Shown: piece by piece, positions 15,949 to 31,041 of the stretch
How the letters are laid out: each line of letters opens with the position of its first letter
Position numbering within the stretch: the first letter of the stretch is position 1
NCBI GenBank assembly: GCA_016721765.1
Contig: JADKHO010000002.1
Span: forward strand, 927,141 to 991,140
Length of the DNA: 64,000 bases
Source of the DNA: Bacteroidota bacterium
GTDB taxonomy: Bacteria > Bacteroidota > Bacteroidia > UBA4408
Reading direction: 5' to 3'
Position numbers and translations under genes: made by a program
Notes under the pieces: model-generated
The model's input: only the letters and a program-made list of their open reading frames with translations
Told to the model about the DNA's origin: nothing
Databases searched by the model: none

Positions 15949-15952
15949 CTTA

Positions 15953-16519
15953 TTAATTTATAAAAATCGAGTTAAAGAAATTATTTTTTAAAATACTCAA
16001 ATCGGTTTCTCTTCGTTTTAAACCTATTAAAATAAAAGTATAAATGTCATGTCCGTTGTAGTAAATTCTTGTATGAAGTTCCTTTTCTGTTTGGTCTTCC
16101 TCATCAATATATGCCACACCAATTTCAGCACATTTTAAGTTTGTATCAGCTTGTTCAATAAGGTTGAAATAAAGTTCTGTTGTGCTATCGTGTAAGCTTT
16201 GGAACATAATACGATTCAAATAAAGTGGGTCGGCTAATGAATCGTTAGCTTGCATATAGTTTGAGTCATCTGTCGAAATGCCTTGATTCATAGACGCTCT
16301 AAAGGATGAATCAGATTTTACAAACTGAATAAAATACTGAGTACTATCAACATCTGATTCAGCAACGAATAATAATAACCCTAAAGTGTCGAGTTCTTTA
16401 GATGGAGGAATTGAAATGTCAAATCCAAATACAGGATTAGTATTTCGAATTTGAAAAGTAGATTGAGGAAACGATGATTCGCAAATAAGTAGTGCAACAA
16501 AAAGGAAATATTTTTTCAT
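15953..16519 (-). CDS. Hypothetical secreted protein
   Basis: It has a signal peptide (MKKYFLFVALLICESSF). It lies 4 nt from the downstream gene start and 1 nt from the upstream gene stop, so it sits in an operon. Confidence 0.35.
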   Translation of the reverse strand: MKKYFLFVALLICESSFPQSTFQIRNTNPVFGFDISIPPSKELDTLGLLLFVAESDVDSTQYFIQFVKSDSSFRASMNQGISTDDSNYMQANDSLADPLYLNRIMFQSLHDSTTELYFNLIEQADTNLKCAEIGVAYIDEEDQTEKELHTRIYYNGHDIYTFILIGLKRRETDLSILKNNFFNSIFIN

Positions 16520-16520
16520 T

Positions 16521-18512
16521 TTATTTAGACTTAATAAGTTTTAATGATTTGGTTTTCCCATTAATCTCAACTGTTACAAGGTAGAAGCCCTTGTCTAGTG
16601 CCTCTGTTGAAAAACTCAAAAGTGAATTTGATTCACTCACCAAGCCAGAGGAAAGTATCTTAATTAATTTTCCTTCAATCGACCTAAGTTCAATGGTAGC
16701 CCAACAAGGCATTTCAATAGAAAGATTTAAATTTATGTTTTCATTAAATGGTACTGGAAAGGCTGTAGCTTCAAAATTAATATTTACATTCTTTTGCTGC
16801 TTTAAATTTGACAAAACCGAATTTGAAATGGATTTTGCCGAAAGTTTTCTTTCAAAAACATCACCGTCATCAACACATTCTACATCATCAATGTGGGCAT
16901 AAAAATTTGCTTGTGCATCAACGGTAAAATTCGTAGTTAAATCAATGCTTTTTCCCGCTCTATATTCAACATCTCCAGAATTTGAAATATGGTTGCTTGC
17001 AGTTATTGTATTATGACTTATGATATCAGCTGGGTCACTTGAACTCCCATAATTTGATAAAGTTGGAAAATCAGTTATCATGGTATTATTGTATAAATCG
17101 TAAAAATACTTCTTTGTTGGCTCATTCTTAGTTAGGCATACTAAATTATACAATACCATATAATCTAATCCATGATACTCTCCAGGAAAATCAGGGTCAC
17201 ATTCACCTCTTCTTTCAGGTTCAACTAATAAAGTTGATGAAGACCAATTGTAACTTTGGTATAATACAGTATTACAATCTTCACTAAAGTTATAAGGACC
17301 ATAACACGGAGCTTCATCCAATAAATTTCGGTAATATGGATTACCATGCCAATCCGCTATTCCGTATAAATACTGATTAAGAAGTGGTAGGTCTACTCTT
17401 GGATGCTTATGGCTTAAATCTGTACTATAAAGGTTTATTTTAGCTCCAAATGGAAGGACATGATTATTATTTACATAATAAGGTCCTGAAAATGTCAAAC
17501 ACTCTAAAAATTTCAGCCCTTGACTTGACCAGAATACAAAGGGCGCACCAACCATATATTTATAAACCTTTTCTAGTTTTTTCCAAGCTTGATCAGCGGT
17601 TTTAATAATCTTGGTAGGATTATTATGGTTCGCGAAATTTAGATTGGCAAACGAAAGTGCGGGAGCTTGTAAATACGCACTTGCTGTACCGTTAAGGGTA
17701 GGCGTGCCAGTTGGATCATATATACGCCAATTCCATGGTGTATTAACTAATGTACCAGAATGGTGGATATAATCAATTATTCGTTTCATTATTTCTTTTG
17801 CTTCATTAGAAAAACTATATGGACCATCCATAAAATTTAAACTCGGGCTAACAGAAGAGGGCATTTTATTTATTAATACATTTAATGCCATATATAAATG
17901 AAGTACTTGATCAATACTCATTTCAAATTCAGGAAGCATATGCTCCTTGGATGCTATCCACATAGCACCTAAATTATCAATACGAGAATTTTGTGATTTA
18001 TTATTCAAATGATCTATAACCGATTGATATGATGTATTATTTTTTTGGTGAAGCGCATCATCCCAACAATTAAAACACAAATCCTCCCTCATTAAAAATC
18101 CATTCAAAGATGTAGTAAATCCCCACCATGACTCGCAATAATGATCGAGTCTATTTATTGCCTCAACAGCGTAATATAATTCATTTAATGTAGCATCAGT
18201 ATTTTGACCGTTTTGTGTTAATAAATCATATTCTGTAACTAAAGCTATTATATAGTAAGATAATGTTATAGTTCCATCAGCACCTTCTTCCCATGTGCCT
18301 CCTGGAGTAGGATGGAAATCTGTTCTAAAACTTGCCGGTATGCTCTCGCCATGTCCAGCGCCAATATCAAGCATAAATTTTGTCCTAAGCCTCTCTCTGT
18401 AATACCAGTATTTTAATTGCCTTTGCTGGTCATCGGATATTTGTGCAACTGCAAAGTGTTGCAAAAACAAGAAAAAAATAAAAATCAATAATAAATTTCG
18501 TTTCATATTCAT
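16521..18512 (-). CDS. Hypothetical secreted protein with T9SS C-terminal sorting domain
   Basis: It has a signal peptide. The C-terminal ~80 aa (ATIELRSIEGKLIKIL...GFYLVTVEINGKTKSLKLIK) is a T9SS type-A CTD. Confidence 0.5.
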   Translation of the reverse strand: MNMKRNLLLIFIFFLFLQHFAVAQISDDQQRQLKYWYYRERLRTKFMLDIGAGHGESIPASFRTDFHPTPGGTWEEGADGTITLSYYIIALVTEYDLLTQNGQNTDATLNELYYAVEAINRLDHYCESWWGFTTSLNGFLMREDLCFNCWDDALHQKNNTSYQSVIDHLNNKSQNSRIDNLGAMWIASKEHMLPEFEMSIDQVLHLYMALNVLINKMPSSVSPSLNFMDGPYSFSNEAKEIMKRIIDYIHHSGTLVNTPWNWRIYDPTGTPTLNGTASAYLQAPALSFANLNFANHNNPTKIIKTADQAWKKLEKVYKYMVGAPFVFWSSQGLKFLECLTFSGPYYVNNNHVLPFGAKINLYSTDLSHKHPRVDLPLLNQYLYGIADWHGNPYYRNLLDEAPCYGPYNFSEDCNTVLYQSYNWSSSTLLVEPERRGECDPDFPGEYHGLDYMVLYNLVCLTKNEPTKKYFYDLYNNTMITDFPTLSNYGSSSDPADIISHNTITASNHISNSGDVEYRAGKSIDLTTNFTVDAQANFYAHIDDVECVDDGDVFERKLSAKSISNSVLSNLKQQKNVNINFEATAFPVPFNENINLNLSIEMPCWATIELRSIEGKLIKILSSGLVSESNSLLSFSTEALDKGFYLVTVEINGKTKSLKLIKSK

Positions 18513-19039
18513 TAACTTTTAAAATGTATCCAAATATATTTTCCATTATAAGTTAGTTCAAGCCAAAGTTCACTTTTAGTTAGTCGCTTAATTCTATATT
18601 CAACATAATCATCCGTAAAAAATGGCCCAACTTCCTTATACTTTAAGTTTACAATGTCTGAAGTTCGAATAATATTCATAATTAAATATTTTCCATTTTC
18701 GCTCAGCTTATAAGAACCTGGCAGATGAGAATAATAGATAGACCCTGTAATATTAACTCGCACATCAATTGGTGCGTAATTAAAACAAGTTCCATCACTT
18801 GGCTCAATAAATTTTGCTCTAAATTTATTATCAATTATGCCTAAAGCTTTATAAACCGCCTCTGTAGAATCAATGCCATCAATATAGATATAAGAAAGCG
18901 TCCATGTCCTTTCTAGCCTTTTACATTTAGAAGTAAAACTAATTAAGGGACCTTCTTCATATTTTCTTTTACAGGATGCCAATACTGCAAATGCCATTCC
19001 TAGAAGAAAAAAAAATTTAATTCTAACTTTAAAATTCAT
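18512..19039 (-). CDS. Hypothetical lipoprotein
   Basis: It has a signal peptide plus a lipobox (VLASC). Confidence 0.35.
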   Translation of the reverse strand: MNFKVRIKFFFLLGMAFAVLASCKRKYEEGPLISFTSKCKRLERTWTLSYIYIDGIDSTEAVYKALGIIDNKFRAKFIEPSDGTCFNYAPIDVRVNITGSIYYSHLPGSYKLSENGKYLIMNIIRTSDIVNLKYKEVGPFFTDDYVEYRIKRLTKSELWLELTYNGKYIWIHFKS

Positions 19040-19040
19040 G

Positions 19041-22000
19041 TTATCTTAATTTTTCAATCTCAATTTTCAACAAGTCATTTTCCTTTTTAAGCTCAATCAT
19101 ATGCAAGGTAAGTTCCTCAACACTTTTTAATAGTTTCACTTGCATTTCTAACAAATCTACACCATTTTCTTGTGCTTCACATTCTGTTGGCATATCGGGT
19201 AAATGTTTGTTTTTTGCAATGAAAGCTTCAAGTTCATTTAGTGGCATCCTTTTATAATTTTTGTCAAACACATAATCTGCCCAACCTGCAGTTGCACCGA
19301 TATCTACCTTCACTCTTTCTGTTCGTATTCCGTGTGTAACGTACAAATCATAATCTGCTGAAAATCCACCTATTTTAATATCCTTACCTATACCAACTTT
19401 ACCGGTAGCAGTAATAATCATTTTAACATTTTGTAAAACTGAGGCATCTGTAGTAGTAACTTCACCGGAATTGTCACCCGGTATTGTTGCAAATCTTAAG
19501 TCACCTGCAAGTGACCCCATTATTACTGATGCCCCATTTCCTGAATTGTCTTTAAAGGTCCAAGTTCCAGCTTCTGAATTTGCTGCCTTTTGGCGTGCGG
19601 CATTAAAACCTAAATAATTGGTTATCCACTCATTTCCATAGCTCCAAAATCCACCCATCGAAATGCTACCAACCCCTTGTCCTACCTGAAATTGAGCATT
19701 TGGGGCATTATTACCAATTCCAACATTACCAAAACTATAATTATTTGCATTATCCAAAAAAGGTTTAATAAAAATGGAAGGTTGATTCGGATCACCAAAT
19801 AATGTTTTTCCATTGGCATTAATCGAAAAAACTTCATTATTTAAATTATTGGCTTTTAGAAAGCCTCCTATTAATTTTGTTACAGTAGAACTAGATATTA
19901 ATTGGGCAGTGTATGCTGGATCACTAGAGGTTTCAACTCGCAGCCCTTCTTCTCCCATAGGAGCAATTACATCTAAATAAGTGGATGGGATGCTTGTTCC
20001 AATACCCACTCTACCGGATGGCCTGTAAACATTAACACCATTCGTTTCCCATAAGCCAATTCCATTGAGCGTATTGGTGGAAACATAACTCAGTTTCCCA
20101 TTCGCATCCGATTGAACTAAATTATATGCATTTGGTCCATTTGCTAATCCCGAAATTCGCACCTCCCCTTGTACATCTAATTGTTCTTGCGGGTCATCGG
20201 TTCCAATTCCCACATAACTTGTGGTTAAAATACTTCCATCAAAAAAAGGTTTTATAAATAATGAAGGTTCGGTTGTTGTAACATCACTACCAATTCTTGT
20301 TTCACCATCTCCTTTAATTGAAAAAAGTTCTTGATCCCAACTTCCGTTAAATGAGGTGCCGCTTATTATTTTAGTGCGTATATCATATACCGAGAGTTGG
20401 GTGTTTTTTTGAGGATATAATCCTCCATTTGGCGTAGTTGTTAAAACTTTTAAGCCGGTATTTGCAACTGAATTAATGTTTGCTGTTACTTCCGGTGAAC
20501 CGCTTGGCACATAAGGGCCACCTATTTCAAAATGTTTTCCAACTCTAACTACCCCAGAGTTATAACCAGGATCTGTATTTGTGCAAATGGAAACGTCTCT
20601 TCCACAAAAATAATTTATTAAAAGCCCGTTGTTTGTGCCCCCATTATTATCGGTGCCTTGCACATCAATTAATCCACTTCCATCCCAAGGTGCCGAACCC
20701 ATTATTAGCGCTGAATTGGTGCTTCCTATAGGGTTGGATGGAAGTGAAGTCATAAATCCTTCAAATAAAAATTTGGTATTTGTCCCACCCAAATTTGGGC
20801 TAATACAGGTAGGCGCATTGGCATTGACTCTTCCAAAATACACTGTTTTTTCGCCAGCTATTGAGTCACTTATAATTTTTAAAGTTTTTGATGGATTTAA
20901 AGCTATCCCTGCTTCGGCACTTATTAATTTACTAAATTTTGTTCCGCTCGAAGTAAAACGCATTGTTTCGGAATTAAAACGCTTAAACACCAAATCTTTA
21001 TTATCAGCTGTACCAATATATTGGGTGGTGGGGTCAATACCTGTGTTACCGGACATTGACCAATCCTCACGCTCGGGTGCTATAATAAAAGCTGTTTTTT
21101 CGGTGGTACATCCTGCTGCATCCACTATCGCAACGGAATAAACACCTGCCGCAAGATTATTCGGGTTTTGAACATGCGAACCATTATTCCACGTATAAGT
21201 ATAAGGGGCTGTACCACTTGTTATAGATAAATTAATACTACCGTTGTTACATGTATTACATGATGTGTTTTTGTTATTAGAATATACAAATGGAGTTGCT
21301 GTTGCTGAAATTTCAGGCGATCGTGTCATTGATATATAAGCCCTATCTTCAGCACCATTTGCATCCATAACCAAGACGCCATAAACTCCTTCCTCTAATA
21401 CATCAGTTACATTTTGTGTACTTGGTCCATGCTCCCAAACAAAAGAGTAGGAATTAGTCCCACCTGAAACTTGTAAGTTAATAGAGCCGGCTATTCCACA
21501 CCCTATATTGTAATTTCCAACAACTTTAGGACTAGTAATACTTACAATATGTAAGACAGTTGGTTCAATTAAAGTTACGCTACCAAATGCTGTACAATTA
21601 GTAGCATCATGCACGGTAATTGAATAAGTTCCGGCACTTACATCAGTTATATTATCACTAGAAGTACTTCCATTGCTCCATAAATAAGTATAAGGTGGCA
21701 CACCTCCTGAAACTTCAACTTTAACTTCACCATCACTCCCACCATTTTCGGAAATATGATACCCACCATTTTTTTCAGTTGGAATTAAAGCTGCATTAAA
21801 TGGCTCAGGTTCAACCAAACCAATAGCCCTAACTACACTTGCCCCATTTGATGCAGTTACTGTAACACTATAGTCGCCTGCAATCAAATTTGAACGATTC
21901 CTTGTTGTAATTCCGTCATTCCAAACATAGGTGTATGGGGCGACTCCACCTGTTATAAACAAATTAATTGAGCCGGTGTTTGCACCGTGGCAACTTATAT

Positions 22001-22118
22001 TATAACCACCGACATACAAAGAAGGTGTTAACTGCACATCAAATTCCTGAGCGCTTACTGCTGAACTAAATAAAAGCATTAAAAATGCAGTTCTAAAAAG
22101 AAAGGATAATTTTTTCAT
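19041..22118 (-). CDS. Large secreted SprB-repeat protein with tail-fibre-like C-terminal coiled-coil domain
   Basis: It has four SprB-type repeats (GGVAPYTYVWNDG, GGVPPYTYLWSNG, GGTNSYSFVWEHG, GTAPYTYTWNNG). The C-terminus (WADYVF...HLPDMP...coiled coil) resembles the Bacteroidota 'tail fiber domain-containing protein' C-terminal module. Confidence 0.5.
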   Translation of the reverse strand: MKKLSFLFRTAFLMLLFSSAVSAQEFDVQLTPSLYVGGYNISCHGANTGSINLFITGGVAPYTYVWNDGITTRNRSNLIAGDYSVTVTASNGASVVRAIGLVEPEPFNAALIPTEKNGGYHISENGGSDGEVKVEVSGGVPPYTYLWSNGSTSSDNITDVSAGTYSITVHDATNCTAFGSVTLIEPTVLHIVSITSPKVVGNYNIGCGIAGSINLQVSGGTNSYSFVWEHGPSTQNVTDVLEEGVYGVLVMDANGAEDRAYISMTRSPEISATATPFVYSNNKNTSCNTCNNGSINLSITSGTAPYTYTWNNGSHVQNPNNLAAGVYSVAIVDAAGCTTEKTAFIIAPEREDWSMSGNTGIDPTTQYIGTADNKDLVFKRFNSETMRFTSSGTKFSKLISAEAGIALNPSKTLKIISDSIAGEKTVYFGRVNANAPTCISPNLGGTNTKFLFEGFMTSLPSNPIGSTNSALIMGSAPWDGSGLIDVQGTDNNGGTNNGLLINYFCGRDVSICTNTDPGYNSGVVRVGKHFEIGGPYVPSGSPEVTANINSVANTGLKVLTTTPNGGLYPQKNTQLSVYDIRTKIISGTSFNGSWDQELFSIKGDGETRIGSDVTTTEPSLFIKPFFDGSILTTSYVGIGTDDPQEQLDVQGEVRISGLANGPNAYNLVQSDANGKLSYVSTNTLNGIGLWETNGVNVYRPSGRVGIGTSIPSTYLDVIAPMGEEGLRVETSSDPAYTAQLISSSTVTKLIGGFLKANNLNNEVFSINANGKTLFGDPNQPSIFIKPFLDNANNYSFGNVGIGNNAPNAQFQVGQGVGSISMGGFWSYGNEWITNYLGFNAARQKAANSEAGTWTFKDNSGNGASVIMGSLAGDLRFATIPGDNSGEVTTTDASVLQNVKMIITATGKVGIGKDIKIGGFSADYDLYVTHGIRTERVKVDIGATAGWADYVFDKNYKRMPLNELEAFIAKNKHLPDMPTECEAQENGVDLLEMQVKLLKSVEELTLHMIELKKENDLLKIEIEKLR

Positions 22119-23236
22119 GAGGTAGCGTTTTAGTTATAAATTGGGATAAAAGGATTGGCGATACAAGGTTGAACAAAGGATTTTGGATTGTCAATACTCA
22201 AAAAGGATGATATTTGAGTGATTACAAAAAAGGCGCTTGGAAATTGCTTAGAAAGAGAATGGGTAGTTCTTATCATGTAGTTCGGTTTTAAAAATTAAAA
22301 CTCCAACCTTACATTTTTCACTCAATTTTTTAAGTGAAAATCCTTCTAAGTAAAAAGCCTAAATAAAATGCATTTGGGCGATGAATTATTTGATGGGGTC
22401 AATTAAAGAAAAATAAATTGAAATGTCAATCCGTATTTCTACGGAAAATTCAATTATTTTTTGGATAGCTACAAACCAATGATAGAAAGGAATCAAACAA
22501 TTTATTTGCGAATATCGCAAATTTTTGTTTAAATTTTTTTCGGCAGATTTGATAAAACAGGAGCAAAATATTGGCGATTTTAGCGGGAACGAAAAGCAAG
22601 AAAAAAACTCCCTTTTTTTTAGAAATAAAACATGCCATTTTTTACTTCCAATTCATTTAATAATTTTCTTTGAGCGGCTAATTATTTATCTAAGCATGAA
22701 ATAGATTTAAGGCAAAATACTCCTGTCGCAAATTGTTTTTTGCATTGTTGCCTGCAAGCTTTTATAATGGCTAAACCCAATTTCATTTTTCTGGATTCTG
22801 AATTAGAGCGATTTTGATGTTATAACTTGTTGTAGCAAGATAACTGCTAAAGATTTCTAGGCATTTTATTTTCGAAAAATCAAATAGCTGCTTTTATACT
22901 TTTATTTCAAGCTTTAACTAAGCTATTCCTAATCAAACAAAAATAATTGCTGGCTTTTCGAAGAAATTTCGAATAGCTCCCAAACGATTACTCAATTCAA
23001 ACACAGTTTAACTCGATGTGAATTAAAAATAACGGACTTTATCCAAGCAATTCTAGACTTCTCACTTAAAATAATGGATTGTTGCCAATGTATTTCTGAT
23101 AATTTGAAGCTTTTTGGAGCATATTACAAGAGTTTTTCTAAAGTGTAACCTGTTTGCATAGTATTTTAATGTTATTTAGATGGCATTTTTATGCCTTTTA
23201 CATACCATTTACATAGATTTTAATGTTATTTACAGG

Positions 23237-23380
23237 CTTATCCGTAACAATAACACAGTTTTATACAAGAATTACAGACTTATCCGTAACAATAACACGG
23301 TTTATCACATTAATAACTCATTTATCCGTAACAATAATTCATTTTTTCGAATCAATTACAGACTTAGCCGTAACAAATAA
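23237..23380. repeat. Iteron array: 4 copies of (A)CAGrCTTAtCCGTAACAAtAA at exact 42-bp spacing
   Basis: The copies start at 23237, 23279, 23321 and 23363. They lie in a 2-kb non-coding region between divergent genes. Confidence 0.7.
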
Positions 23381-24080
23381 GTGCTGTAAACTACTGAATT
23401 TACACGGTTTTATGAAATGGGATGATAAATTCCACGCATTTTAGCTTAGTGTCGCTCACATTTGAATTAGGCAATTGCTAAAAGATATCATTTTCACCGT
23501 TTCCTGACTTGCGCATTTCCATTTCAGAAAACAAAAAAACTCAAGCCAAATTTTGCTTTTTGTGTTTTACAATTTTCGAATATTTTTCTCCCCCATTTTC
23601 CAAAATCTGACGGAATTTTCCGGTCCCGTTTTTTGCAGAAATCGCAAAAATAGTTAGCAATCATTTACCAGCGTTGAGCTACAGCTATTTTTAAGATAGT
23701 TGCATTTTCCGTATTTCTACGGATTGATAATTCGATTATTTTTTTATTGCTTTAGCGGGATTTAATTTATTAAAGTGGCTAGGGATAAATTTGAGTTCTT
23801 TGAATTATTTTGATAAATAACATTAAAACAAGCTGAAAGCAATAATAAAAGTGGATAAACTATCTTGATAAATTTTTTAAGACCTAATAATGCACTTTAT
23901 TTTGGGTAAATAGGGATTGAAAATATAAAATATTCTTTTTGAAAGCACCTGAAAAATATTATGATGGAATAGAGTGGATAATTCCAATAATTACAGATTT
24001 AGTGTCTGATAAATTATCAGCAAAAGAAATAATTAAAAAAGTAATCACAATTATTCAAACAATAAATAAATAAATAGGTC

Positions 24081-24572
24081 ATGGCAAGAAAAACATTCTT
24101 TAGCTTCCATTATGAAAATGATGTATGGAGAGCAAATCAAGTTAGAAATAGTTGGGTAACCAAGGACAATAACGAAGCGGCTGGCTTTATTGATTTTGCA
24201 GATTTTGAGAAAGTAGAGAAAGAAGGAGAGACTGCAATAAAGCAATGGATAGATAAACAGCTTGAAGGAACTTCTGTAACTGTTGTATTGATTGGTTCAG
24301 ACACCAACAATCGTCCGTATGTAAAATATGAGTTAGAAAAAAGCTGGGAAAAGGGCAATGGCATTTTGGGTATTTATATTCATCAACAAAAGAATAAAGA
24401 CGGGAAAATTGATAAAAAGGGAAGTAATTCATTTGGCCCTCTCTTTAAAAAGAGTTCTGATGACAAGCAATATTTTTGGGAACGATTTGAAACTTATGAC
24501 TGGGTTGATGATGACGGTTATAATAACATGGGAAAATGGATTGAATTAGCAGCAAAAAAAGCAGGTAGATAA
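24081..24572 (+). CDS. ThsB-like TIR domain protein (DUF1863/MTH538 TIR-like)
   Basis: The N-terminal motif FFSFHYENDVWRANQVRNSW and the overall ~160-200 aa layout match Thoeris ThsB-type TIR proteins. It is the first of three tandem paralogs. Confidence 0.65.
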   Translation: MARKTFFSFHYENDVWRANQVRNSWVTKDNNEAAGFIDFADFEKVEKEGETAIKQWIDKQLEGTSVTVVLIGSDTNNRPYVKYELEKSWEKGNGILGIYIHQQKNKDGKIDKKGSNSFGPLFKKSSDDKQYFWERFETYDWVDDDGYNNMGKWIELAAKKAGR

Positions 24573-25195
24573 TGGCAAGATATGTTTTTTTTAGTTTCGC
24601 TTATGACGATGTAAAGAACTTCAAAGTAAACGTTGTTCGGCACAGTTGGCTAATCAATAAAAATGAAGAAACTTTTATTGATGGTTCAATTTGGGAAAAG
24701 GATAAAACCAAAGGTTCAATAGCAATAATGAAGCTTATTGAGAATGGTTTAAACAAAACATCGGTAACGGCAATTCTAATTGGAGAAGAAACGGCAAATA
24801 GGCGTTGGGTTAATTATGAACTAATAAAAAGTTTTGACCGAGGAAACGGAATTTTAGGAGTTTATATTAATAGAATCAGAGGCAAACAACAAGCAATTTC
24901 AGCAAGAGGCCTTAATCCACTTGACCGTCTTGCATTTCAAATTTCAGAGGATGGAAGGAAAATTCGGTTTTATGAATTGATAAATCGCAAATGGGTCGTT
25001 TACTCTGACTTACCTGAAATAAATAATAAGAAGTCAAATACACTTTACTTTGAAGATAGCTTTTGGAAGGGTAATGATTTTGGAAAATCATTTCGCTTTT
25101 CTGAAATGTTCAATACTTTTTGTTGGATAAATGATGATGGACACAAAAACTTTTCATCTTGGGTTGAAGAAGCGGCAAATGAAGCAGGACGATAA
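24572..25195 (+). CDS. ThsB-like TIR domain protein (DUF1863)
   Basis: It has FFSFAYDDVKNFKVNVVRHSW...SVTAILIGEETANRRWVNYE...WVEEAANEAG. This is the closest in the window to the canonical ThsB pattern. Its start overlaps the previous gene's stop. Confidence 0.7.
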   Translation: MARYVFFSFAYDDVKNFKVNVVRHSWLINKNEETFIDGSIWEKDKTKGSIAIMKLIENGLNKTSVTAILIGEETANRRWVNYELIKSFDRGNGILGVYINRIRGKQQAISARGLNPLDRLAFQISEDGRKIRFYELINRKWVVYSDLPEINNKKSNTLYFEDSFWKGNDFGKSFRFSEMFNTFCWINDDGHKNFSSWVEEAANEAGR

Positions 25196-25212
25196 ACATA
25201 AAATATATTTTC

Positions 25213-25590
25213 ATGAGTAAATCAATTTTTATTAGTTGCGTTTTTGAAGACAGTCATAGAATTGAGTCAATAAAAAAATGGGCTATGAACAACCGACTTG
25301 GGGATGTAATAATTACCCATGAAACGGAAGATAAACGCCCACTTGGTAAAGATGCAATCAAGAAACATATTCAAAGCAAAATTGAAGGCGCTGCCATAAT
25401 ATTAGTATTGATTGGACAAGACACACATAATCATGAATGGATTGAAGCAGAAGTTGAGCTTGCAAACAGTTTTCATAAAGAAATTATTTGCGTTAGAGTT
25501 CCTCAAACCAAAGGTGCAGCTCCAATTTTGCTGGCAAATAAACGTTTAATTAGTTTTGACCCTGACGCTATTAAAAAGCTAATTTCATAG
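25213..25590 (+). CDS. Short TIR-like (DUF1863-like) protein
   Basis: It has an IFISCVFEDS start with an AIILVLIGQDTHNHEWIEAEVELA core. It is 125 aa. Confidence 0.5.
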   Translation: MSKSIFISCVFEDSHRIESIKKWAMNNRLGDVIITHETEDKRPLGKDAIKKHIQSKIEGAAIILVLIGQDTHNHEWIEAEVELANSFHKEIICVRVPQTKGAAPILLANKRLISFDPDAIKKLIS

Positions 25591-25852
25591 ACTATACTTA
25601 AACAGAATAAAGAGACAAAAAGCACAGAGCAAATGGATCATTTGAAAAAAGATAGATATCAAGTTCCGTAGATTATTTTTACAACGTACGTCTTTTTTAA
25701 TTCAATTTTATTGCCATCTCACAAATAATAAATTTGGTTTTGCCTAAGTCATAAGCAAAACCTTTGTAAACATTTATTGTCCACGCAACAACAATAACTT
25801 TAAGTATTTATAACTTAGCAAATTCCTAGACTTAAAATACTTATACCCAAAA

Positions 25853-27415
25853 ATGGCAAAACAAAAAAAAGAAGTAAAAGAAAAAAGCATTGAAGTTACC
25901 CTTTGGGAAGCAGCTAATAAATTGAGAGGTAGCGTAGAGCCTGCCGAATACAAACACGTAGTATTAGGCCTGATTTTCTTAAAGTTTGCCAGTGACAAGT
26001 TTGAAGAACATCGAGCCAAATTGATTGCAGAAGGCAAAGACAAATACCTTGAACTGGCTGACTTCTACAATATGAGCAACGTATTCTTTTTGGAAGAAAC
26101 AAGCCGGTGGAGTCTCCTTATAAAAAAGTCAAAACAAAACGACATTGCATTGCTCATTGACACAGCATTGCATACTATTGAAAAAAACAACAAAGCACTG
26201 AAAGGTGCATTGCCCGACAATTACTTTTCTCGTTTGGGTTTGGATGTAACCAAACTAGCTTCTTTGCTTGATACCATTAACGACATTGACACCATCAAAG
26301 ACCCGAAGCAAGATGTTGTTGGGAAAGTGTATGAATACTTTCTTTCAAAATTTGCATTGGCAGAAGGAAAAGGCAAAGGAGAATTTTACACCCCCAAAAG
26401 CATTGTAAACCTGATTGCCGAAATGATTGAACCTTACAAGGGAATTATCTATGACCCAGCTTGTGGTTCGGGTGGAATGTTTGTGCAGAGTATTAAGTTT
26501 ATTGAAGCACACCACGGCAACAAAAAAGAAATTAGCATTTACGGACAGGAATACACCAACACGACTTACAAACTGGCGAAAATGAATTTGGCCATTAGAG
26601 GCATTAGTGGCAATCTTGGTGAAAAAGCTGCCGACACTTTTGCAGACGATCAACACAAAGACCTTAAAGCAGATTACATAATGGCTAATCCACCTTTTAA
26701 CCAAAAAGATTGGCGTGCCGAGAACGAATTGAAAGACGACCCACGTTGGAGAGGCTATGATGTGCCTCCCAAAAGCAACGCCAATTATGGTTGGATATTA
26801 AATATGGTTTCTAAACTTTCCGACAATGGTATTGCAGGTTTTATATTGGCAAACGGTGCATTGAGTGGCGGTGGCGAAGAATATAAAATACGCAGAAAAC
26901 TGATTGAAAATAAATTGGTGGAAGCCATTTTGGTATTGCCACGTAATTTGTTTTATACCACCGACATCAGCGTTACGCTTTGGATTGTGAACAAAAACAA
27001 AAAAGCACAAAATAAAAAAGTGGGAGTCGAAACCCGCAACAACCGTGACCGTGAAAAGGAAATCTTATTTATGGATTTGCGACAAATGGGCGAACCATTT
27101 GAAAAGAAATACACACAGTTTTCTGAGACTGATATTCAAAAAGTAACAAGTACATACCACCAATGGCAAACTAAAAATATTGAAAACGTTCCTGAATTCT
27201 GCTATTCGGCAACGTTTGATGAAGTAGCCAAAAAAGATTTTTCACTCGTTCCGAGCAAATACATTGAGTTTGTAAACCGTGACGAGAATATTGACTTTGA
27301 CAAAAAAATGCAAATCCTGCAAAACGAATTTGCAGGATTACTAAAAGCAGAAGCTAATTCAAAAAATGATTTACTAACCGTGTTTAAAGAATTGGGTTAT
27401 GAAATCACATTATAA
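25853..27415 (+). CDS. hsdM: Type I restriction-modification system DNA methyltransferase subunit
   Basis: It has an N6-adenine MTase catalytic motif NPPF (IMANPPFNQ) and an AdoMet motif (DPACGSGGMF). It is 520 aa and has HsdM N- and C-domains. Confidence 0.9.
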   Translation: MAKQKKEVKEKSIEVTLWEAANKLRGSVEPAEYKHVVLGLIFLKFASDKFEEHRAKLIAEGKDKYLELADFYNMSNVFFLEETSRWSLLIKKSKQNDIALLIDTALHTIEKNNKALKGALPDNYFSRLGLDVTKLASLLDTINDIDTIKDPKQDVVGKVYEYFLSKFALAEGKGKGEFYTPKSIVNLIAEMIEPYKGIIYDPACGSGGMFVQSIKFIEAHHGNKKEISIYGQEYTNTTYKLAKMNLAIRGISGNLGEKAADTFADDQHKDLKADYIMANPPFNQKDWRAENELKDDPRWRGYDVPPKSNANYGWILNMVSKLSDNGIAGFILANGALSGGGEEYKIRRKLIENKLVEAILVLPRNLFYTTDISVTLWIVNKNKKAQNKKVGVETRNNRDREKEILFMDLRQMGEPFEKKYTQFSETDIQKVTSTYHQWQTKNIENVPEFCYSATFDEVAKKDFSLVPSKYIEFVNRDENIDFDKKMQILQNEFAGLLKAEANSKNDLLTVFKELGYEITL

Positions 27416-28565
27416 ACCATTGGGTAAATACATACAACTTGTTGTAGGTCGCAACAATGAGTTGGGAGATTTACCATTAATGGGCTTGAGTATTTCAAAA
27501 AAATTTATTCCTTCTATTGCGAATACAATAGGAACTGATATGTCAACATACAGAACCATTTATAAAAATCAGTTCGCTTATGGTCCTGTAACATCAAGAA
27601 ACGGAGATAAATTTACAATTGCTTTGTTTAATGATTATGACAAAGCGTTGATTTCACAAGCATATATTCCTTTTGAAGTAAAAGACAGCAACGAACTTGA
27701 ACCCGAATATTTGATGATGTGGTTTCGCAGACCTGAGTTTGACCGTTACGCAAGATTTAAAAGTCACGGCAGTGCAAGAGAAATTTTTGATTGGGAAGAA
27801 ATGTGTAATACACTTCTGCCAGTTCCCCACCCCGACAAACAACGAGAAATAGTAAAAGAATACAACACCATACAAAACCGCATAGCACTCAACCAGCAAC
27901 TGATACAAAAACTCGAAGAAACCGCACAAGCTATTTATAGGCAGTGGTTTGTGGAAGGTATTGATTTACAGAATTTGCCAGAGGGGTGGACAATTGGTGA
28001 TTTAAGTATGATTTCCAAAAAAATATTTAGCGGTGGTACTCCGTCAACTGAAGTTGATGAATATTGGAATGGTGATTATTACTGGTTTTCTTCTGGTGAG
28101 ACTGGCTATAAATATATTCTTAGTACAGAAAAAAAAATCACTAAGGAAGGTATAAAGAACTCTACCACAAAAAAAACACAAAGATTAAGTACTGTAATTG
28201 CAACTGCGGGTCAGGGTAAAACTAGAGGTCAATCTGCTCTAATTTTTAATGATGTTTATATTAACCAATCTGTTATCTCTGTAGAACCAATAAGTACTGA
28301 ATATTCATATTTCATTTTCCTGAACATTAATTCAAGATACGAGGAATTAAGAAATGATTCTGATGCTCAAAGTATCAGAGGTAGCATCAATTCAAATGAC
28401 ATTAAAGGGTTGTCAACGATAGTGCCACTAAATGACATTATGCTAAAGTTTCACAAGACCGTTTCTCCTTTTTTTGAAATAATTGAGAATAAAATGAAAC
28501 AAAACCAAATGCTAAAGGAACTGAAAGATTTGCTTCTTTCGAAATTAGCGACAATAGAAAATTAA
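27399..28565 (+). CDS. hsdS: Type I restriction-modification specificity subunit
   Basis: It has two target-recognition domains separated by a conserved central helical repeat. It overlaps hsdM by 17 nt. Confidence 0.8.
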   Translation: MKSHYKPLGKYIQLVVGRNNELGDLPLMGLSISKKFIPSIANTIGTDMSTYRTIYKNQFAYGPVTSRNGDKFTIALFNDYDKALISQAYIPFEVKDSNELEPEYLMMWFRRPEFDRYARFKSHGSAREIFDWEEMCNTLLPVPHPDKQREIVKEYNTIQNRIALNQQLIQKLEETAQAIYRQWFVEGIDLQNLPEGWTIGDLSMISKKIFSGGTPSTEVDEYWNGDYYWFSSGETGYKYILSTEKKITKEGIKNSTTKKTQRLSTVIATAGQGKTRGQSALIFNDVYINQSVISVEPISTEYSYFIFLNINSRYEELRNDSDAQSIRGSINSNDIKGLSTIVPLNDIMLKFHKTVSPFFEIIENKMKQNQMLKELKDLLLSKLATIEN

Positions 28566-28572
28566 AAAAAAT

Positions 28573-29754
28573 ATGAGATATAAATATCAGCTAATAATAT
28601 TAGGCAGTAAAGTTTCAATAATTGATGATGTGATAGAATTGTTTTCTAAAAAATTAGAAGATTTGAAATTGCCAGATAGTTCTGTTAAAATTATTAATTC
28701 AGGTAATTTTGAAGCTGAATACCTAGGTAATCAGCCGGCATTTGTATTTTATTTTGGTGATGTGGTTGGAAATTTTAAGGATTTGGATATTACTCAGAGG
28801 TTATTGAATGAAGGCACTATGATATTGCCTATTTATTTTAATAATGATTCCTTCTCAAAGGAAATACCATGCATTTTAGAAAACCAAAATGGTATTCAGT
28901 ACAAAAAAATTGAAGAAGACAGAATAGTAAATATTGCATTAGAATCTTTTGAACTATTAAACAATACAAGAAAAATATTTATTAGTTATAAAAGAAATGA
29001 ATCAACATCAGTTGCCATTCAATTATTTGAAGCTTTAGAAGCGCATAATTTTGATGTTTTTTTAGATACTCATTCAATAGGTAAAGCTGAAGCGTTTCAA
29101 GAAGAATTATGGCACAAAATGACGGATTGTGATGTAATTCTACTACTGAATACACCAAATTTTCTGAATAGTCATTGGTGTAAAGAAGAATTTGCAGAAG
29201 CTGGTGCTAAACAAATTGGTATTGTTCAATTGGTTTGGCCAAATCATAATGTAAAAATGGATGATACATCTCATATCAGTTTTCCAAAGCAATTAATTAA
29301 AGAAAATTTCATTGCCGATTTATTTGATGACAGGGATAAATCAAAATTAAAAGATGATATAGTTGAAGAGATAATCAAAGAGGTTGAATCAGTTAGAGCG
29401 AGGAATTTAGCCGCACGGCAAGATAATTTAATTACAGAATTTAGAAATATTGCTGATAGAATTGGAAAAAAAATCACTTTACAACCAGAAAGATTTTTGA
29501 CAGAAGATTTGTCAAACGGTGAAAGAAGAATATATATACCAACGATTGGTATACCACAGTCAACAAGTTGTCAATCTGCTGAAATAAGAAATGAATTATT
29601 AAACTATGGTAATATCAGCATTAGGTTAATTTATGATGATATACGGATAAGAGAAAAATGGATTAATCATCTAGATTGGTTAAATAAAAATTTAAATGTA
29701 GATATCAAGACATTAAAAAAACAAGAATTTGAATCATGGCTAAGCAAGAATTAA
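28573..29754 (+). CDS. TIR domain-containing protein (N-terminal unknown domain + canonical TIR + C-terminal extension)
   Basis: The central RKIFISYKRNESTSVAIQLFEALEAHNFDVFLD...DVILLLNTPNFLNSHWCKEE is a canonical TIR signature. It starts 8 nt after hsdS. Confidence 0.6.
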   Translation: MRYKYQLIILGSKVSIIDDVIELFSKKLEDLKLPDSSVKIINSGNFEAEYLGNQPAFVFYFGDVVGNFKDLDITQRLLNEGTMILPIYFNNDSFSKEIPCILENQNGIQYKKIEEDRIVNIALESFELLNNTRKIFISYKRNESTSVAIQLFEALEAHNFDVFLDTHSIGKAEAFQEELWHKMTDCDVILLLNTPNFLNSHWCKEEFAEAGAKQIGIVQLVWPNHNVKMDDTSHISFPKQLIKENFIADLFDDRDKSKLKDDIVEEIIKEVESVRARNLAARQDNLITEFRNIADRIGKKITLQPERFLTEDLSNGERRIYIPTIGIPQSTSCQSAEIRNELLNYGNISIRLIYDDIRIREKWINHLDWLNKNLNVDIKTLKKQEFESWLSKN

Positions 29755-30332
29755 AAAATATTTTTCTATCTGCAAGTATTCCTTTGCCGGACAGAGATCC
29801 AAAATATATAGAGACTGCTGATATTATTGCTATCCGAGATGCTGTTATAGCTCTAACAACAGTTGTGCTACCATATCATAGAATTATTTGGGGTGGTCAT
29901 CCATCAATTACTCCTTTAATTTATTATGTAATGGATAAATTGAAATTAAATGTACAAAATCATGTTACTCTTTATCAATCAGAGTTCTTTAAAGAAAAGT
30001 TTCATGAAGACAATAATAAATTTGAAAATGTAATACTTACTGAAAACCTAGGTGACATTCCTTCAAGTGTTAAAAGAATGCGTGAAATAATATTTTCTGA
30101 GAATAAATTTGTTGCTGCAGTTTTTATAGGTGGTATGGATGGAATTGAAGTTGAATTTAATATGTTTCGAGAATATCATCCGGATGCTATTTTATTGCCA
30201 ATTTCAAGTGCAGGAGCAGCTTCTAAAGTTGTTTATGAAAATCTTCTGCCTGCAGAATTTAAAAATGAAATGCTGGTTAAGAATTATGCTTATATGTCTT
30301 TATTTCAAAATTTGTTAATCGATAAAATTTAG
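29736..30332 (+). CDS. SLOG/LOG-like Rossmann-fold protein (candidate TIR-signal sensor)
   Basis: The protein is 198 aa with two Gly-rich loops (RIIWGGHPS and VFIGGMDGIE) like LOG/SLOG (ThsA C-terminal) domains. It overlaps the upstream TIR gene by 19 nt. Confidence 0.4.
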   Translation: MAKQELKNIFLSASIPLPDRDPKYIETADIIAIRDAVIALTTVVLPYHRIIWGGHPSITPLIYYVMDKLKLNVQNHVTLYQSEFFKEKFHEDNNKFENVILTENLGDIPSSVKRMREIIFSENKFVAAVFIGGMDGIEVEFNMFREYHPDAILLPISSAGAASKVVYENLLPAEFKNEMLVKNYAYMSLFQNLLIDKI

Positions 30333-30335
30333 TTT

Positions 30336-31031: not shown

Positions 31032-31041
31032 CAAAAATAAT

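What the first reader, a model, noticed from the sequence alone, without database searches (positions are those of the whole stretch)
22119..24080. 2-kb non-coding region with a 4× iteron array at exact 42-bp periodicity and flanking repeated palindromes
No credible ORF spans 22119-24080; the listed ORFs at 23180-23444 merely translate the repeats. The region contains four copies of CTTAtCCGTAACAAtAA(cac) at 23237/23279/23321/23363. A 42-bp spacing is four helical turns, typical of iterons for a Rep or regulator, or of an oriT/oriV. It also contains two copies of CCGTATTTCTACGG with similar flanks at 22431 and 23709, a perfect 17-bp palindrome TTTGCGAATATCGCAAA at 22505, and a twice-repeated ATTTTAATGTTATTTA at 23163/23217. 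This looks like a replication/transfer origin or a heavily regulated divergent promoter hub for the defence island and the SprB-like operon.
Basis: seen in the sequence. Interest (0 to 1): 0.65.

Follow-up and report, generated by a model that had tools for sequence, protein, structure and literature searches.

The report
Orphan binding-site array in gene-loss scar
The 2-kb gene-free stretch is real, but it is a strain-specific piece of non-coding DNA that replaced most of a defence gene (thsA) inside an integrated genomic island, and its four evenly spaced repeats look like docking sites for an unidentified DNA-binding protein rather than a replication or transfer origin.

Summary
No frame is coding. 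The region is composite.

- **22119-22229:** the only part conserved with a sister island. It is the upstream stub of the SprB-like operon.
- **23925-24073:** the last ~45-49 codons of thsA. In relatives thsA sits directly in front of the same thsB triplet.
- **22230-23924:** 1.7 kb of AT-rich non-coding DNA. I found it nowhere else, so it is lineage-specific as far as the searches reach. It has mirror symmetry: imperfect inverted repeats of about 245 bp whose axis coincides with the segment's midpoint.

The whole region lies in a 30.6-kb island integrated at tRNA-Asp.

The 4×42-bp array keeps a 16-nt core identical in three units, while the rest of each unit has drifted to 58% identity and the spacing stays exactly 42 bp. 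Each unit holds a 7-4-7 dyad, TTACAGA-CTTA-TCCGTAA. I read it as phased sites for a dimeric DNA-binding protein encoded elsewhere, an architecture like the F-plasmid centromere sopC.

No rep, par or mob gene and no DnaA-box cluster were found. The motif is not a widespread repeat. An origin is therefore not supported, and a promoter-hub role remains untested. Interest is modest.

The parts
12976..43563 (.). Integrated genomic island of about 30.6 kb. It is bounded by a 20-bp direct repeat, TTTTCGAGCGGTCCGGACGG, at 12976-12995 and 43544-43563; the second copy overlaps the 3' end of tRNA-Asp. A tyrosine integrase lies at 13235-14608.
   Evidence: repeat and tRNA; integrase.
22119..22229 (-). Conserved upstream stub of the SprB-like operon. 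It is the only part of the 'non-coding region' shared with the sister island L028.
   Evidence: In one search, blastn homology between window 18864-22215 and L028 15656-19041 is 85%. By eye it continues to 'gattac' at 22229.
22230..23924 (.). Lineage-specific, AT-rich (~30% GC), non-coding segment with mirror-symmetric layout. It replaces the 5' ~1.3 kb of thsA.
   Evidence: No homolog was found in plasmids, phages or GTDB genomes.
22396..22640 (+). Left arm of the imperfect inverted repeat. The core, 22400-22521, is 70% identical to the right arm.
   Evidence: score 65.5 against shuffles of 23 ± 2.6; 59% identity over 256 columns; anti-diagonal offset of 1-3 nt.
23512..23753 (-). Right arm of the imperfect inverted repeat. 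Its core is 23632-23749.
22430..22445 (+). Exact 16-mer TCCGTA-TTTC-TACGGA (a 6-4-6 dyad), at the apex of a palindrome of about 58 bp.
23708..23723 (+). Second exact copy of TCCGTATTTCTACGGA. Its loop is in the same (direct) orientation as in the first copy.
22505..22521 (.). Perfect 7-3-7 palindrome TTTGCGA-ATA-TCGCAAA. Its degenerate partner, TTTGCAGAAATCGCAAA, lies at 23632-23648 in the other arm.
   Evidence: (family D5).
23230..23397 (+). Array of four 42-bp units starting at 23230, 23272, 23314 and 23356. Each holds the dyad TTACAGA-CTTA-TCCGTAA followed by CAATAA. The core TTATCCGTAACAATAA is invariant in units 1-3.
23163..23232 (+). Two copies of ATTTTAATGTTATTTA (23163, 23217) flank a small GC hairpin at 23182-23195, just upstream of the array. 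An inverted copy lies at 23814-23828.
23786..23793 (+). TAAATTTG, one of three exact matches to the Bacteroidota -7 motif TAnnTTTG in the scanned interval 22000-24200. It is a candidate replacement promoter for the thsB genes. This is inference only.
   Evidence: The consensus comes from my own knowledge of Bacteroidota sigma-A promoters.
23925..24073 (+). 3' remnant of thsA (the SIR2-STALD Thoeris effector). The last 44 codons are 73% identical to intact ThsA residues 434-477.
   Evidence: E = 2e-13; breakpoint at 23916-23925; intact thsA in relatives.
24081..25590 (+). Three thsB (TIR) genes of 163, 207 and 125 aa. The relative L033 has the same triplet behind an intact thsA.

Best explanation
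The 1.96-kb gap is a composite, not one functional locus.

**Shown.**
- It lies mid-way in a tRNA-Asp-integrated island.
- Its left 110 bp are the conserved upstream stub of the SprB-like operon.
- Its right 150 bp are the 3' end of a truncated thsA.
- The 1.7 kb in between (22230-23924) is lineage-specific non-coding DNA that replaced the first ~430 codons of thsA.
- That insert is mirror-symmetric. Its ~245-bp imperfect inverted repeats have an axis that coincides with the insert's midpoint to within 1-3 bp, so it behaves as one discrete unit.
- It carries three kinds of dyad-symmetric sites: the 4×42-bp array, two exact TCCGTA-N4-TACGGA sites, and two TTTGCGA-N3-TCGCAAA-type sites.

**Inferred.**
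- The array is a set of four phased sites for a dimeric sequence-specific DNA-binding protein that is encoded elsewhere. A spacing of 42 bp is four helical turns, so all four sites face the same side of the helix and bound dimers could co-operate.
- Its present role is most likely cis-regulatory or architectural. Candidate roles are repressing, insulating, or supplying the replacement promoter region of the now thsA-less thsB operon.
- It arrived with a non-autonomous element or through an illegitimate recombination event.
- It is not a replication or transfer origin.
For: **Island.** A 20-bp direct repeat lies at 12976 and at 43544, the latter at the 3' end of tRNA-Asp, and an integrase is present.

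**Variable block.** Window 12983-22215 and 43551-44448 match the sister island L028 at 82-87%. Window 22216-43550 has no counterpart there.

**thsA loss.**
- Five loci from three lookups of relatives place a 477-478-aa SIR2_2+STALD gene 5 nt upstream of the 163-aa thsB. L033 has the same thsB triplet as the window.
- Only ThsA residues 434-477 survive, at window 23939-24070 (73% identity, E = 2e-13). The breakpoint is at 23916-23925.

**Non-coding status.**

**Constraint on the array.**
- The core is 48/48 identical in pairwise comparisons against 45/78 for the rest of the unit (Fisher p = 7e-9, core chosen post hoc).
- No net indel has disturbed the 42-bp spacing.
- The core shows no synonymous-type variation in the ORF that reads through it. 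This argues for DNA-level rather than protein-level selection.

**Dyad.** TTACAGA-N4-TCCGTAA has 0-2 mismatches in all four units and occurs nowhere else in 64 kb at up to one mismatch.

**Inverted repeat and symmetry.**

**Architectural precedent.** sopC of plasmid F consists of 12 direct 43-bp repeats, each carrying a 16-bp inverted repeat bound by SopB (PMC3177203).
Against: - No candidate binding protein was identified. There is no HTH, Par or Rep gene in the island.
- The array sits 700-850 bp from the thsB start and more than 1.1 kb from the SprB-like start. That is far for a simple operator.
- The region has no homolog anywhere, so the constraint is inferred only from four paralogous units in one sequence. 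It may reflect selection in an ancestral context, leaving a relic that is inert today.
- Promoter motifs are not enriched.
- The coincidence of the symmetry axis with the midpoint is a post hoc observation (roughly p = 0.015).
Confidence: 0.4

Rival explanations
1. The array is a relic. The 1.7-kb segment would be a fossil of the maintenance region of a plasmid, ICE or phage, carrying a sopC-like centromere or a Rep/repressor site array. It was captured by the recombination event that deleted thsA. The cognate genes are gone and the sites are now inert.
For: - The architecture matches sopC: direct repeats of about 43 bp, each with a dyad (PMC3177203).
- No partner gene is present in the island.
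- The segment is bounded by a gene truncation and a homology break.
- It is absent from the sister islands.
Against: - blastn finds no similarity to any of 72,556 plasmids or 50,697 phages.
- No coding remnants are present in any of the six frames.
- Three cores are still identical and the phasing is intact, which is unexpected after long neutral decay.
Confidence: 0.22
2. The segment is a non-autonomous mobile element. On this reading 22230-23924, or 22446-23707 between the two exact 16-mers, is a transposase-less element with long subterminal inverted repeats. It could be MITE-like, foldback-like, or a derivative of the IS200/IS605 type. Its insertion, with an associated deletion, destroyed thsA. 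The internal repeats would be binding sites for a transposase or recombinase supplied in trans.
For: - The layout is mirror-symmetric and its axis coincides with the midpoint of the novel segment.
- Both ends of the segment coincide with breakpoints.
- Identical 16-nt hairpins lie in direct orientation near both ends, as in IS200/IS605-type ends (the comparison is from my own knowledge).
Against: - There is no target-site duplication and no similarity at the very termini.
- There is no second copy in the 64-kb window.
- The conserved 20-nt module pattern gave only 4 unrelated chance hits in 185,579 genomes and 0 in viral contigs.
- No transposase remnant is present.
- At 1.7 kb it is large for a bacterial MITE.
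Confidence: 0.12
3. The feature acts at the RNA level. The array would be transcribed, most likely from the minus strand, as a repetitive structured RNA. It could be an orphan type III antitoxin-like array or an sRNA, with the two hairpin modules acting as terminators.
For: - The minus-strand RNA of the array folds to -32.9 kcal/mol (z = -3.4). The plus strand gives -11 kcal/mol (z = -0.4). This strand asymmetry comes from G·U pairs.
- Type III antitoxins are short tandem arrays found in defence contexts, for example ToxI with 5.5 × 36 nt (PMC3401426).
- The hairpin modules fold with z = -2.2 to -3.4.
Against: - No toxin ORF or remnant lies on either side.
- No terminator-like site follows the array.
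- Only 58% of the unit outside the core is conserved, whereas, from my own knowledge of ToxI, antitoxin repeats are near-identical over the whole unit.
- Rfam gives no match with E < 0.05.
- The G·U asymmetry is one inherited feature copied into the units, not independent covariation.
Confidence: 0.1
4. The region is a functional oriV or oriT of the island.
For: - Four direct repeats lie in AT-rich DNA inside a mobile island.
- Two one-mismatch DnaA boxes lie at 23850 and 23973.
- The gene strand switch and the local minimum of cumulative GC skew fall at about 22 kb.
Against: - No Rep, primase, relaxase or Mob protein is present in the island.
- The spacing is 42 bp rather than about 22 bp.
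- DnaA-box-like sites are no denser here than elsewhere in the window.
- The sister island lacks the region entirely yet keeps the integrase and att sites.
- The skew minimum merely follows the switch in gene orientation.
Confidence: 0.05
5. The segment is an invertible promoter that flips between the SprB-like operon and the defence genes.
For: - Inverted repeats flank about 1 kb between a surface-adhesin operon and defence genes, and a tyrosine recombinase is present in the island.
- Such switches are common in Bacteroidota (my own knowledge).
Against: - The only exact segments, the 16-mers, are in direct orientation including their asymmetric centre TTTC. Recombination between them would delete rather than invert.
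- The arms are only 59-70% identical.
- The recombinase is the island's integrase, 9 kb away, and it is also present in a sister island that lacks the segment.
Confidence: 0.04

Closest known systems
sopC centromere of plasmid F (12 × 43-bp direct repeats, each with a 16-bp inverted repeat bound by SopB; PMC3177203)
   Same: - Both are tandem direct repeats of about four helical turns (42 vs 43 bp).
- In both, each unit carries one short dyad-symmetric site. Here the arms are 7 bp.
- The rest of the unit is less constrained here; I did not check how far this holds for sopC.
   Different: - Here there are only 4 units.
- No parA/parB (sopA/sopB) genes are nearby.
- The array lies in an integrated island, not on a replicon that needs partition.
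- The site sequence is unrelated.
- Binding has not been tested.
Iteron-type plasmid origins (Rep-bound direct repeats of about 17-22 bp)
   Same: - Both have direct repeats with an invariant core.
- Both lie in AT-rich DNA on a mobile element.
- A weak 21-bp half-period is detectable here.
   Different: - The period here is 42 bp, not about 22 bp.
- Each unit here is a dyad rather than an asymmetric iteron.
- There is no rep gene, no DnaA-box cluster and no similarity to plasmid records.
Type III toxin-antitoxin antitoxin arrays (ToxI, 5.5 × 36 nt; PMC3401426)
   Same: Both are short tandem arrays (36-42 nt) in a defence-gene neighbourhood.
   Different: - There is no terminator or toxin gene downstream.
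- The repeats here are conserved only in a 16-nt core.
Canonical Thoeris locus (thsA SIR2-STALD followed by thsB genes), as in loci L033 and L036
   Same: The window has the same thsB triplet and the same last 44 codons of thsA directly upstream.
   Different: The first ~430 codons of thsA are missing and are replaced by the 1.7-kb non-coding segment.
42-bp hairpin arrays in Bacteroidota-like metagenome contigs (L015, L016, L018, L019)
   Same: - They also have an exact 42-bp period.
- They share 13 nt, ATCCGTAACAATA.
- They lie in AT-rich intergenic DNA, once next to R-M genes.
   Different: - There the whole unit is conserved, with about 20 copies.
- There the unit is a 9-bp-stem hairpin with the shared 13-mer in the loop.
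- The flanks are unrelated.
- The shared core was the search key, and scrambled controls give similar hit numbers. The link is therefore probably coincidental.

Membership tests
Iteron-type replication origin (oriV) | Three or more direct repeats bound by a Rep initiator, typically 17-22 bp at a spacing of about 22 bp | tested here: inconclusive
   Four direct repeats are present, but at 42 bp, and each is a dyad. Only a weak 21-bp sub-period is seen, at 62% matches.
Iteron-type replication origin (oriV) | A cognate rep (initiator) gene adjacent to or on the same element | tested here: not met
   No Rep or primase family was found in any island ORF or in the six-frame translation of the region.
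Iteron-type replication origin (oriV) | A DnaA-box cluster or AT-rich unwinding element next to the iterons | tested here: not met
   Only two one-mismatch boxes are present, 450-600 bp away. Their density is no higher than in the rest of the window. AT-richness is uniform across the 2 kb.
Iteron-type replication origin (oriV) | Supports autonomous replication | not testable with these tools
   This needs a cloning and replication assay.
Origin of transfer (oriT) | A relaxase or Mob gene and a nic site on the element | tested here: not met
   No relaxase, Mob or T4SS family is present in the island.
sopC-type partition centromere | Tandem direct repeats of about 43 bp, each with an inverted-repeat binding site | tested here: met
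   There are 4 × 42 bp units, each with TTACAGA-N4-TCCGTAA. The definition is taken from PMC3177203.
sopC-type partition centromere | Adjacent parA/parB-type genes | tested here: not met
   No ParA or ParB centromere-binding gene was found. The only hit I know (not from the tool output) to have a ParB-like fold is the GmrSD_N nuclease at 31042-32754.
Type III toxin-antitoxin locus | A tandem repeat array followed by a terminator and a ToxN/CptN/TenpN toxin gene (PMC3401426) | tested here: not met
   No terminator-like site follows the array. There is no ORF longer than 46 aa within 600 nt and no Pfam hit in six frames.
Invertible promoter (inverton) | Near-identical inverted repeats flanking the segment | tested here: not met
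   The arms are 59-70% identical. The only exact 16-mers are in direct orientation.
Invertible promoter (inverton) | Both orientations present in a population | not testable with these tools
   This needs read-level data. Sample SRR28060519 carries a 100% identical stretch.
MITE or other non-autonomous transposable element | Terminal inverted repeats flanked by a target-site duplication | tested here: not met
   The inverted repeats are subterminal, about 170 bp from each breakpoint. No target-site duplication or terminal similarity is present.
MITE or other non-autonomous transposable element | Multiple copies in the genome or in related genomes | tested here: inconclusive
   There is no other copy in the 64-kb window. 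GTDB genomes and viral contigs gave only chance hits. The rest of the host genome is not available.
Thoeris thsA gene | An intact SIR2-STALD ORF of about 477 aa immediately upstream of thsB | tested here: not met
   Only residues 434-477 are recognisable, at 23939-24070. The gene is therefore a truncated remnant.
Known RNA families (Rfam 15) | A covariance-model match at or above the gathering score | tested here: not met
   There is no match in the region at gathering score. The best sub-threshold hit is a chance plastid 3'UTR match at 26 bits against a threshold of 55.8.

The most novel reading that the evidence does not exclude
The mirror-symmetric 1.7-kb non-coding segment could be a new kind of non-autonomous element that mediates cargo exchange in Bacteroidota tRNA-island defence loci. 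Its arrival truncated thsA. The 4×42-bp dyad array would act as a centromere-like or recruitment platform for a trans-encoded protein, or as a minus-strand hairpin-array RNA. The 42-bp arrays with the same 13-nt core in other Bacteroidota-like contigs (the L016 family, once next to R-M genes) would then be relatives rather than coincidences.
Probability: 0.07. Interest if true: 0.6.

Novelty: new member of a known kind. Interest (0 to 1): 0.3.

Why it matters
- **Annotation.** A 2-kb 'intergenic regulatory hub' or 'origin' is largely the scar of a gene loss. This Thoeris locus has lost its effector thsA but keeps three thsB genes. That affects any prediction of the island's defence capacity.
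- **A testable target.** The phased dyad array is a clean, small target for DNA pull-down, which could identify an unknown DNA-binding protein of a Bacteroidota island.
- **Wider significance.** This is limited unless the element turns out to recur or to be mobile.

Tried and rejected
- **Chromosomal oriC.** A gene strand switch and a skew minimum fall at 22 kb. I rejected this because there is no DnaA-box cluster, the region lies inside an island, and the sister island lacks it.
- **Decayed genes filling the gap.** tblastn with ThsA and its neighbours, and with the response-regulator gene of the sister island, finds only the 44-codon thsA tail. A six-frame Pfam scan is empty.
- **A universal ATCCGTAACAA motif.** The metagenome scan gave 26 loci, but they are heterogeneous.
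  - L005 carries tubulin and so is eukaryotic, and ORF-poor L007, L009, L023 and L026 look like eukaryotic minisatellites.
  - L001, L008, L021 and probably L024 are coding peptide repeats of the VTDN type.
  - L020 is a Firmicutes 7 × 21-bp array.
  - L015, L016, L018 and L019 are the L016 hairpin-array family.
  - None shares flanks with the window.
  - Scrambled 11-mers give similar counts in viral contigs: 2 for the real motif against 0 and 2.
- **Tandem accretion of two islands.** There is no third att copy.
- **Outer 170-bp flanks as terminal inverted repeats.** The similarity is not significant.
- **Exact-protein look-ups of flanking genes and of the repeat ORF.** These found nothing. 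The exception is thsB3, which located only a 920-bp identical contig.
- **Operator and palindrome patterns in viral contigs.** These gave only single chance hits.
- **Similarity between AATTACAGAYTTA in the array and in the thsA remnant (23985-24001).** I judged this not significant after allowing for multiple testing.
Full report

Yes.
- A 42-bp tandem array lies at 23230-23376. TRF gives score 157 and 3.5 copies, with a weaker 21-bp sub-period.
- It has four in-register copies with spacings of 42, 42 and 42.
- TTATCCGTAACAA is exact at 23238, 23280 and 23322 and has one mismatch at 23364. The window holds no other match with fewer than 2 mismatches.
- TCCGTATTTCTACGGA is exact at 22430 and 23708.
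- The 7-3-7 palindrome TTTGCGAATATCGCAAA is at 22505.
- ATTTTAATGTTATTTA is at 23163 and 23217, with a third, inverted copy at 23814.

No frame is open. The longest ORFs (73 and 66 aa) only read through the repeats, stops are dense in all six frames, and a six-frame Pfam scan is empty. Rfam finds nothing credible.

**2. Where is it?**

The window comes from a Bacteroidota-type chromosome. It encodes T9SS sorting domains, SprB repeats and a FecR/ECF pair.

A 20-bp direct repeat, TTTTCGAGCGGTCCGGACGG, lies at 12976 and at 43544. The second copy overlaps the 3' end of tRNA-Asp. Together with a tyrosine integrase at 13235, this defines a 30.6-kb integrated island.

The non-coding stretch lies mid-island. 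On its left is a five-gene SprB-like/T9SS operon on the minus strand. On its right is a run of defence genes on the plus strand:
- three ThsB-TIR genes;
- a Type I R-M system interrupted by ThsB-SLOG-ThsB and GmrSD.

Pfam, NCBIfam, PHROGs, PADLOC and PDB sequence searches identify no Rep, Par, Mob or HTH regulator gene in the island.

**3. Comparative evidence**

*Sister island.* An integrase 97% identical to the window's (P0001) led to four contigs carrying a sister island (L028-L031). blastn shows the following.
- Window 12983-22215 is 85-87% identical to L028 9748-19041, apart from a diverged stretch at about 17250-18860 inside the SprB-like operon.
- Window 43551-44448 (tRNA-Asp and DUF58) is 82% identical to L028 20476-21373.
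- Window 22216-43550 has no counterpart. L028 has instead 1.4 kb with a response-regulator gene, and this is unrelated to the window's segment.

By eye the shared sequence ends at 22229. So only about 110 bp upstream of the SprB-like gene is conserved. The rest of the 'intergenic region' belongs to a variable cargo block.

*The right edge.* Relatives of the 163-aa ThsB were looked up in their contigs.
- In L033, L034 and L036-L038 a 477-478-aa SIR2_2+STALD gene (thsA) ends 5 nt before thsB.
- L033 carries the same thsB triplet (163, 206 and 127 aa) as the window (163, 207 and 125 aa).
- tblastn of those ThsA proteins against the window finds only residues 434-477, at 23939-24070 (73% identity, E = 2e-13).
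- The nucleotide alignment puts the breakpoint at 23916-23925.

The 44-aa 'ORF' at 23939-24073 is therefore the tail of a truncated thsA. About 1.3 kb of thsA has been replaced by 22230-23924.

The very closest ThsB relatives (L043-L045) pair with a different small upstream gene that I read, by eye, as a membrane protein. Effector swapping therefore appears to occur in this family.

*Is the segment found elsewhere?* No.
- blastn against plasmids and phages finds nothing.
- The iteron pair gives 0 hits in 185,579 species genomes.
- The 20-nt pattern conserved between the two hairpin modules gives 0 viral hits and 4 unrelated genome hits.
- There is no other copy in the window.
- A 920-bp Logan contig from SRR28060519 is 100% identical to 24927-25846. 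The strain therefore exists in a public sample, but this adds no comparative information.

**4. Anatomy of the 1.7-kb segment**

*Inverted repeat.* The two 'palindromes with similar flanks' are part of a larger imperfect inverted repeat.
- 22400-22521 against 23632-23749 is 70% identical over 125 columns. The score is 65.5, against shuffles of 23 ± 2.6 with a maximum of 32.
- At lower identity the repeat extends to 22396-22640 against 23512-23753, 59% over 256 columns.

*Symmetry.* When 22230-23924 is reverse-complemented on itself, the matches fall on anti-diagonal offsets of 1-3 nt. The axis of the inverted repeat (23075-23077) therefore coincides with the midpoint between the two independently defined breakpoints (23073-23077). 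This is a post hoc observation with roughly p = 0.015. It suggests that the segment is one discrete, mirror-symmetric unit.

*The outer flanks.* The outer ~170 bp on each side are not significantly similar to each other, and there is no target-site duplication.

*Contents of each arm.* Each arm holds two features:
- a palindrome of about 58 bp centred on the exact 16-mer TCCGTA-TTTC-TACGGA;
- about 60 nt further in, a TTTGCGA-N3-TCGCAAA-type palindrome.

The two exact 16-mers have the same loop on the same strand. As recombination sites they would be direct repeats, which argues against an invertible switch.

**5. The array itself**

*Conservation pattern.* Within units 1-3 the 16-nt core TTATCCGTAACAATAA is identical at 48 of 48 pairwise positions. 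The other 26 nt match at 45 of 78 (58%). Fisher's test gives p = 7e-9, with the core chosen post hoc.

*Spacing.* Despite that drift the spacing is still exactly 42 bp. At 10.5 bp per turn this is four helical turns.

*Not a coding constraint.* The ORF that reads through the array shows no synonymous-type variation in the core and free change elsewhere. This is the opposite of a coding pattern.

*Dyad.* Each unit contains the imperfect dyad TTACAGA-CTTA-TCCGTAA, with 6 of 7 half-site positions symmetric. It is present with 0-2 mismatches in all four units and occurs nowhere else in 64 kb at up to one mismatch.

*Interpretation.* Together these are the marks of selection on phased binding sites for a dimeric DNA-binding protein, not of a neutral minisatellite.

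*Shared hexamer.* The half-site contains TACGGA, which is also the arm of the 16-mer hairpins. This could be meaningful or a six-base coincidence.

*RNA folding.* As RNA, the minus strand of the array folds much better than the plus strand (-32.9 kcal/mol, z = -3.4, against -11 kcal/mol, z = -0.4). The difference arises because the dyad's single asymmetry is a G·U pair on that strand. It is one inherited feature copied into the units, not independent covariation.

**6. Is the motif a general one?**

A looser metagenome scan (ATCCGTAACAA twice, 37-47 bp apart) returned 26 loci. They are heterogeneous.
- L005 encodes tubulin and so is eukaryotic, and the ORF-poor loci L007, L009, L023 and L026 look like eukaryotic minisatellites.
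- L001, L008, L021 and probably L024 are coding peptide repeats.
- L020 is a Firmicutes 7 × 21-bp array lying between a gene I read by eye as a NERD-domain gene and an mreB-like gene.
- L015, L016, L018 and L019 form one Bacteroidota-like family of 42-bp hairpin arrays.

None shares flanks with the window. Composition-matched scrambled 11-mers give similar hit counts in the viral collection: 2 for the real motif against 0 and 2. I therefore treat these hits as background. The shared 13-mer and 42-bp period of the L016 family remain an unexplained coincidence.

**7. What it most likely is and does**

*Shown.*
- The 'region' is a composite: a conserved 110-bp stub, a 1.7-kb lineage-specific symmetric non-coding insert, and a thsA remnant.
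- The insert carries three classes of dyad sites.
- The array core is under DNA-level constraint, or was until recently.

*Inferred (confidence about 0.4).*
- The array is a phased set of sites for a dimeric DNA-binding protein encoded outside the island.
- It acts as a cis-regulatory or architectural element of the DNA that now stands upstream of the thsA-less thsB genes.
- A Bacteroidota -7-like motif, TAAATTTG, at 23786, just outside the right arm, is a candidate replacement promoter.

*Closest architecture.* The nearest parallel is sopC of plasmid F, with 12 × 43-bp direct repeats each holding a 16-bp inverted repeat bound by SopB (PMC3177203). Membership fails because no par genes are present.

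*Rivals.*

| Reading | Confidence |
|---|---|
| Inert relic of a plasmid or ICE maintenance region | 0.22 |
| Non-autonomous mobile element (favoured by the symmetry and the breakpoints; disfavoured by no TSD, no other copy and no transposase trace) | 0.12 |
| RNA-level function, such as an orphan type III antitoxin-like array (no toxin or terminator; definition from PMC3401426) | 0.10 |
| Functional oriV or oriT | 0.05 |
| Inverton | 0.04 |

**8. Novelty and interest**

The feature is real but ordinary in kind. It is a lineage-specific array of operator or centromere-like sites inside a recombination scar of a defence island.

The practically useful results are the re-annotation and a well-defined pull-down target. 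The re-annotation covers the truncated thsA, the island boundaries and the extent of the variable cargo block.

Interest is 0.3. The most novel reading that the evidence does not exclude is a new cargo-swapping non-coding element related to other 42-bp arrays in Bacteroidota. I give it about 7%.

Noticed in passing
window 12976-12995 and 43544-43563: A 20-bp direct repeat, TTTTCGAGCGGTCCGGACGG, bounds a 30.6-kb island integrated at the 3' end of tRNA-Asp (43551-43625, minus strand). The integrase at 13235-14608 lies at the end of the island far from the tRNA.
   Followed up: yes
window 25853-35967: The Type I R-M operon (hsdM 25853, hsdS 27399, hsdR 32755) is interrupted by a second Thoeris-like set and by GmrSD. 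The set is a ThsB-like TIR protein (28573, 393 aa), a SLOG cluster-3 protein (29736) and a second ThsB-like protein (30336). GmrSD is at 31042. The SLOG protein could be the effector for the thsA-less thsB genes.
   Followed up: partly
window 36332-43365: Seven consecutive plus-strand ORFs at the tRNA-proximal end of the island have essentially no family assignment. The only hits are a weak HNH_5 match in the 471-aa protein and weak DUF6398 and phrog_8999 matches. PADLOC finds nothing.
   Followed up: partly
L016 9279-10118; also L015, L018 and L019: These Bacteroidota-like metagenome contigs carry about 20 tandem 42-bp units, GGAAAGGCATCCGTAACAATATTTTATGCTTTCCATTTTGAA. Two unit variants differ by apparently compensatory changes in a 9-bp stem (CAAAG..CTTTG against GGAAAG..CTTTCC). 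The arrays occur at several loci in one sample, once beside a Dam methylase/HNH cluster. This may be an undescribed hairpin-array repeat family.
   Followed up: partly
L020 1285-1420: A Firmicutes-like contig has 7 × 21-bp repeats of TTTATCCGTAACAAA. This is the same 13-mer as the window's core. The repeats lie between a gene I read by eye as a NERD-domain gene and an mreB/mbl-like gene. Their function is unknown.
   Followed up: no
L028 19454-20101: In the sister island, the response-regulator (REC + GerE) gene upstream of the SprB-like operon appears split into 157-aa and 40-aa ORFs. This may be a frameshift or pseudogene. A terminator-like hairpin, CCCCGTATTTTGACGGGG-TTTTC, at 19199 resembles the window's 16-mer.
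   Followed up: no
window 11664-12975 against L028 8849-9747: The left flank of the island differs between the window (SBBP/T9SS genes) and the sister island (TIM, PrmA). The tRNA-Asp/DUF58 flank is shared. The chromosomal context on that side is therefore not syntenic.
   Followed up: no
window 23985-24001 against 23266-23282 and 23350-23366: AATTACAGAYTTA occurs in two array units and once inside the thsA remnant, where it encodes ITDL. After allowing for multiple testing I judged this chance. Origin of the array from thsA sequence was not excluded.
   Followed up: partly
L057 (SRR28060519), equal to window 24927-25846: A public sequencing run contains a contig 100% identical to part of the thsB block. 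Read-level tests for inversion, excision or strain variants of the non-coding segment are therefore possible.
   Followed up: partly
L051 9271-9330: A high-GC viral contig has ATTTGCGAATATCGCAAAT and a near copy, TTTGCGATTATCGCAA, flanking a TTGACA promoter-like hexamer. This is a classic two-operator layout with the same palindrome as window 22505. It is probably coincidence.
   Followed up: no
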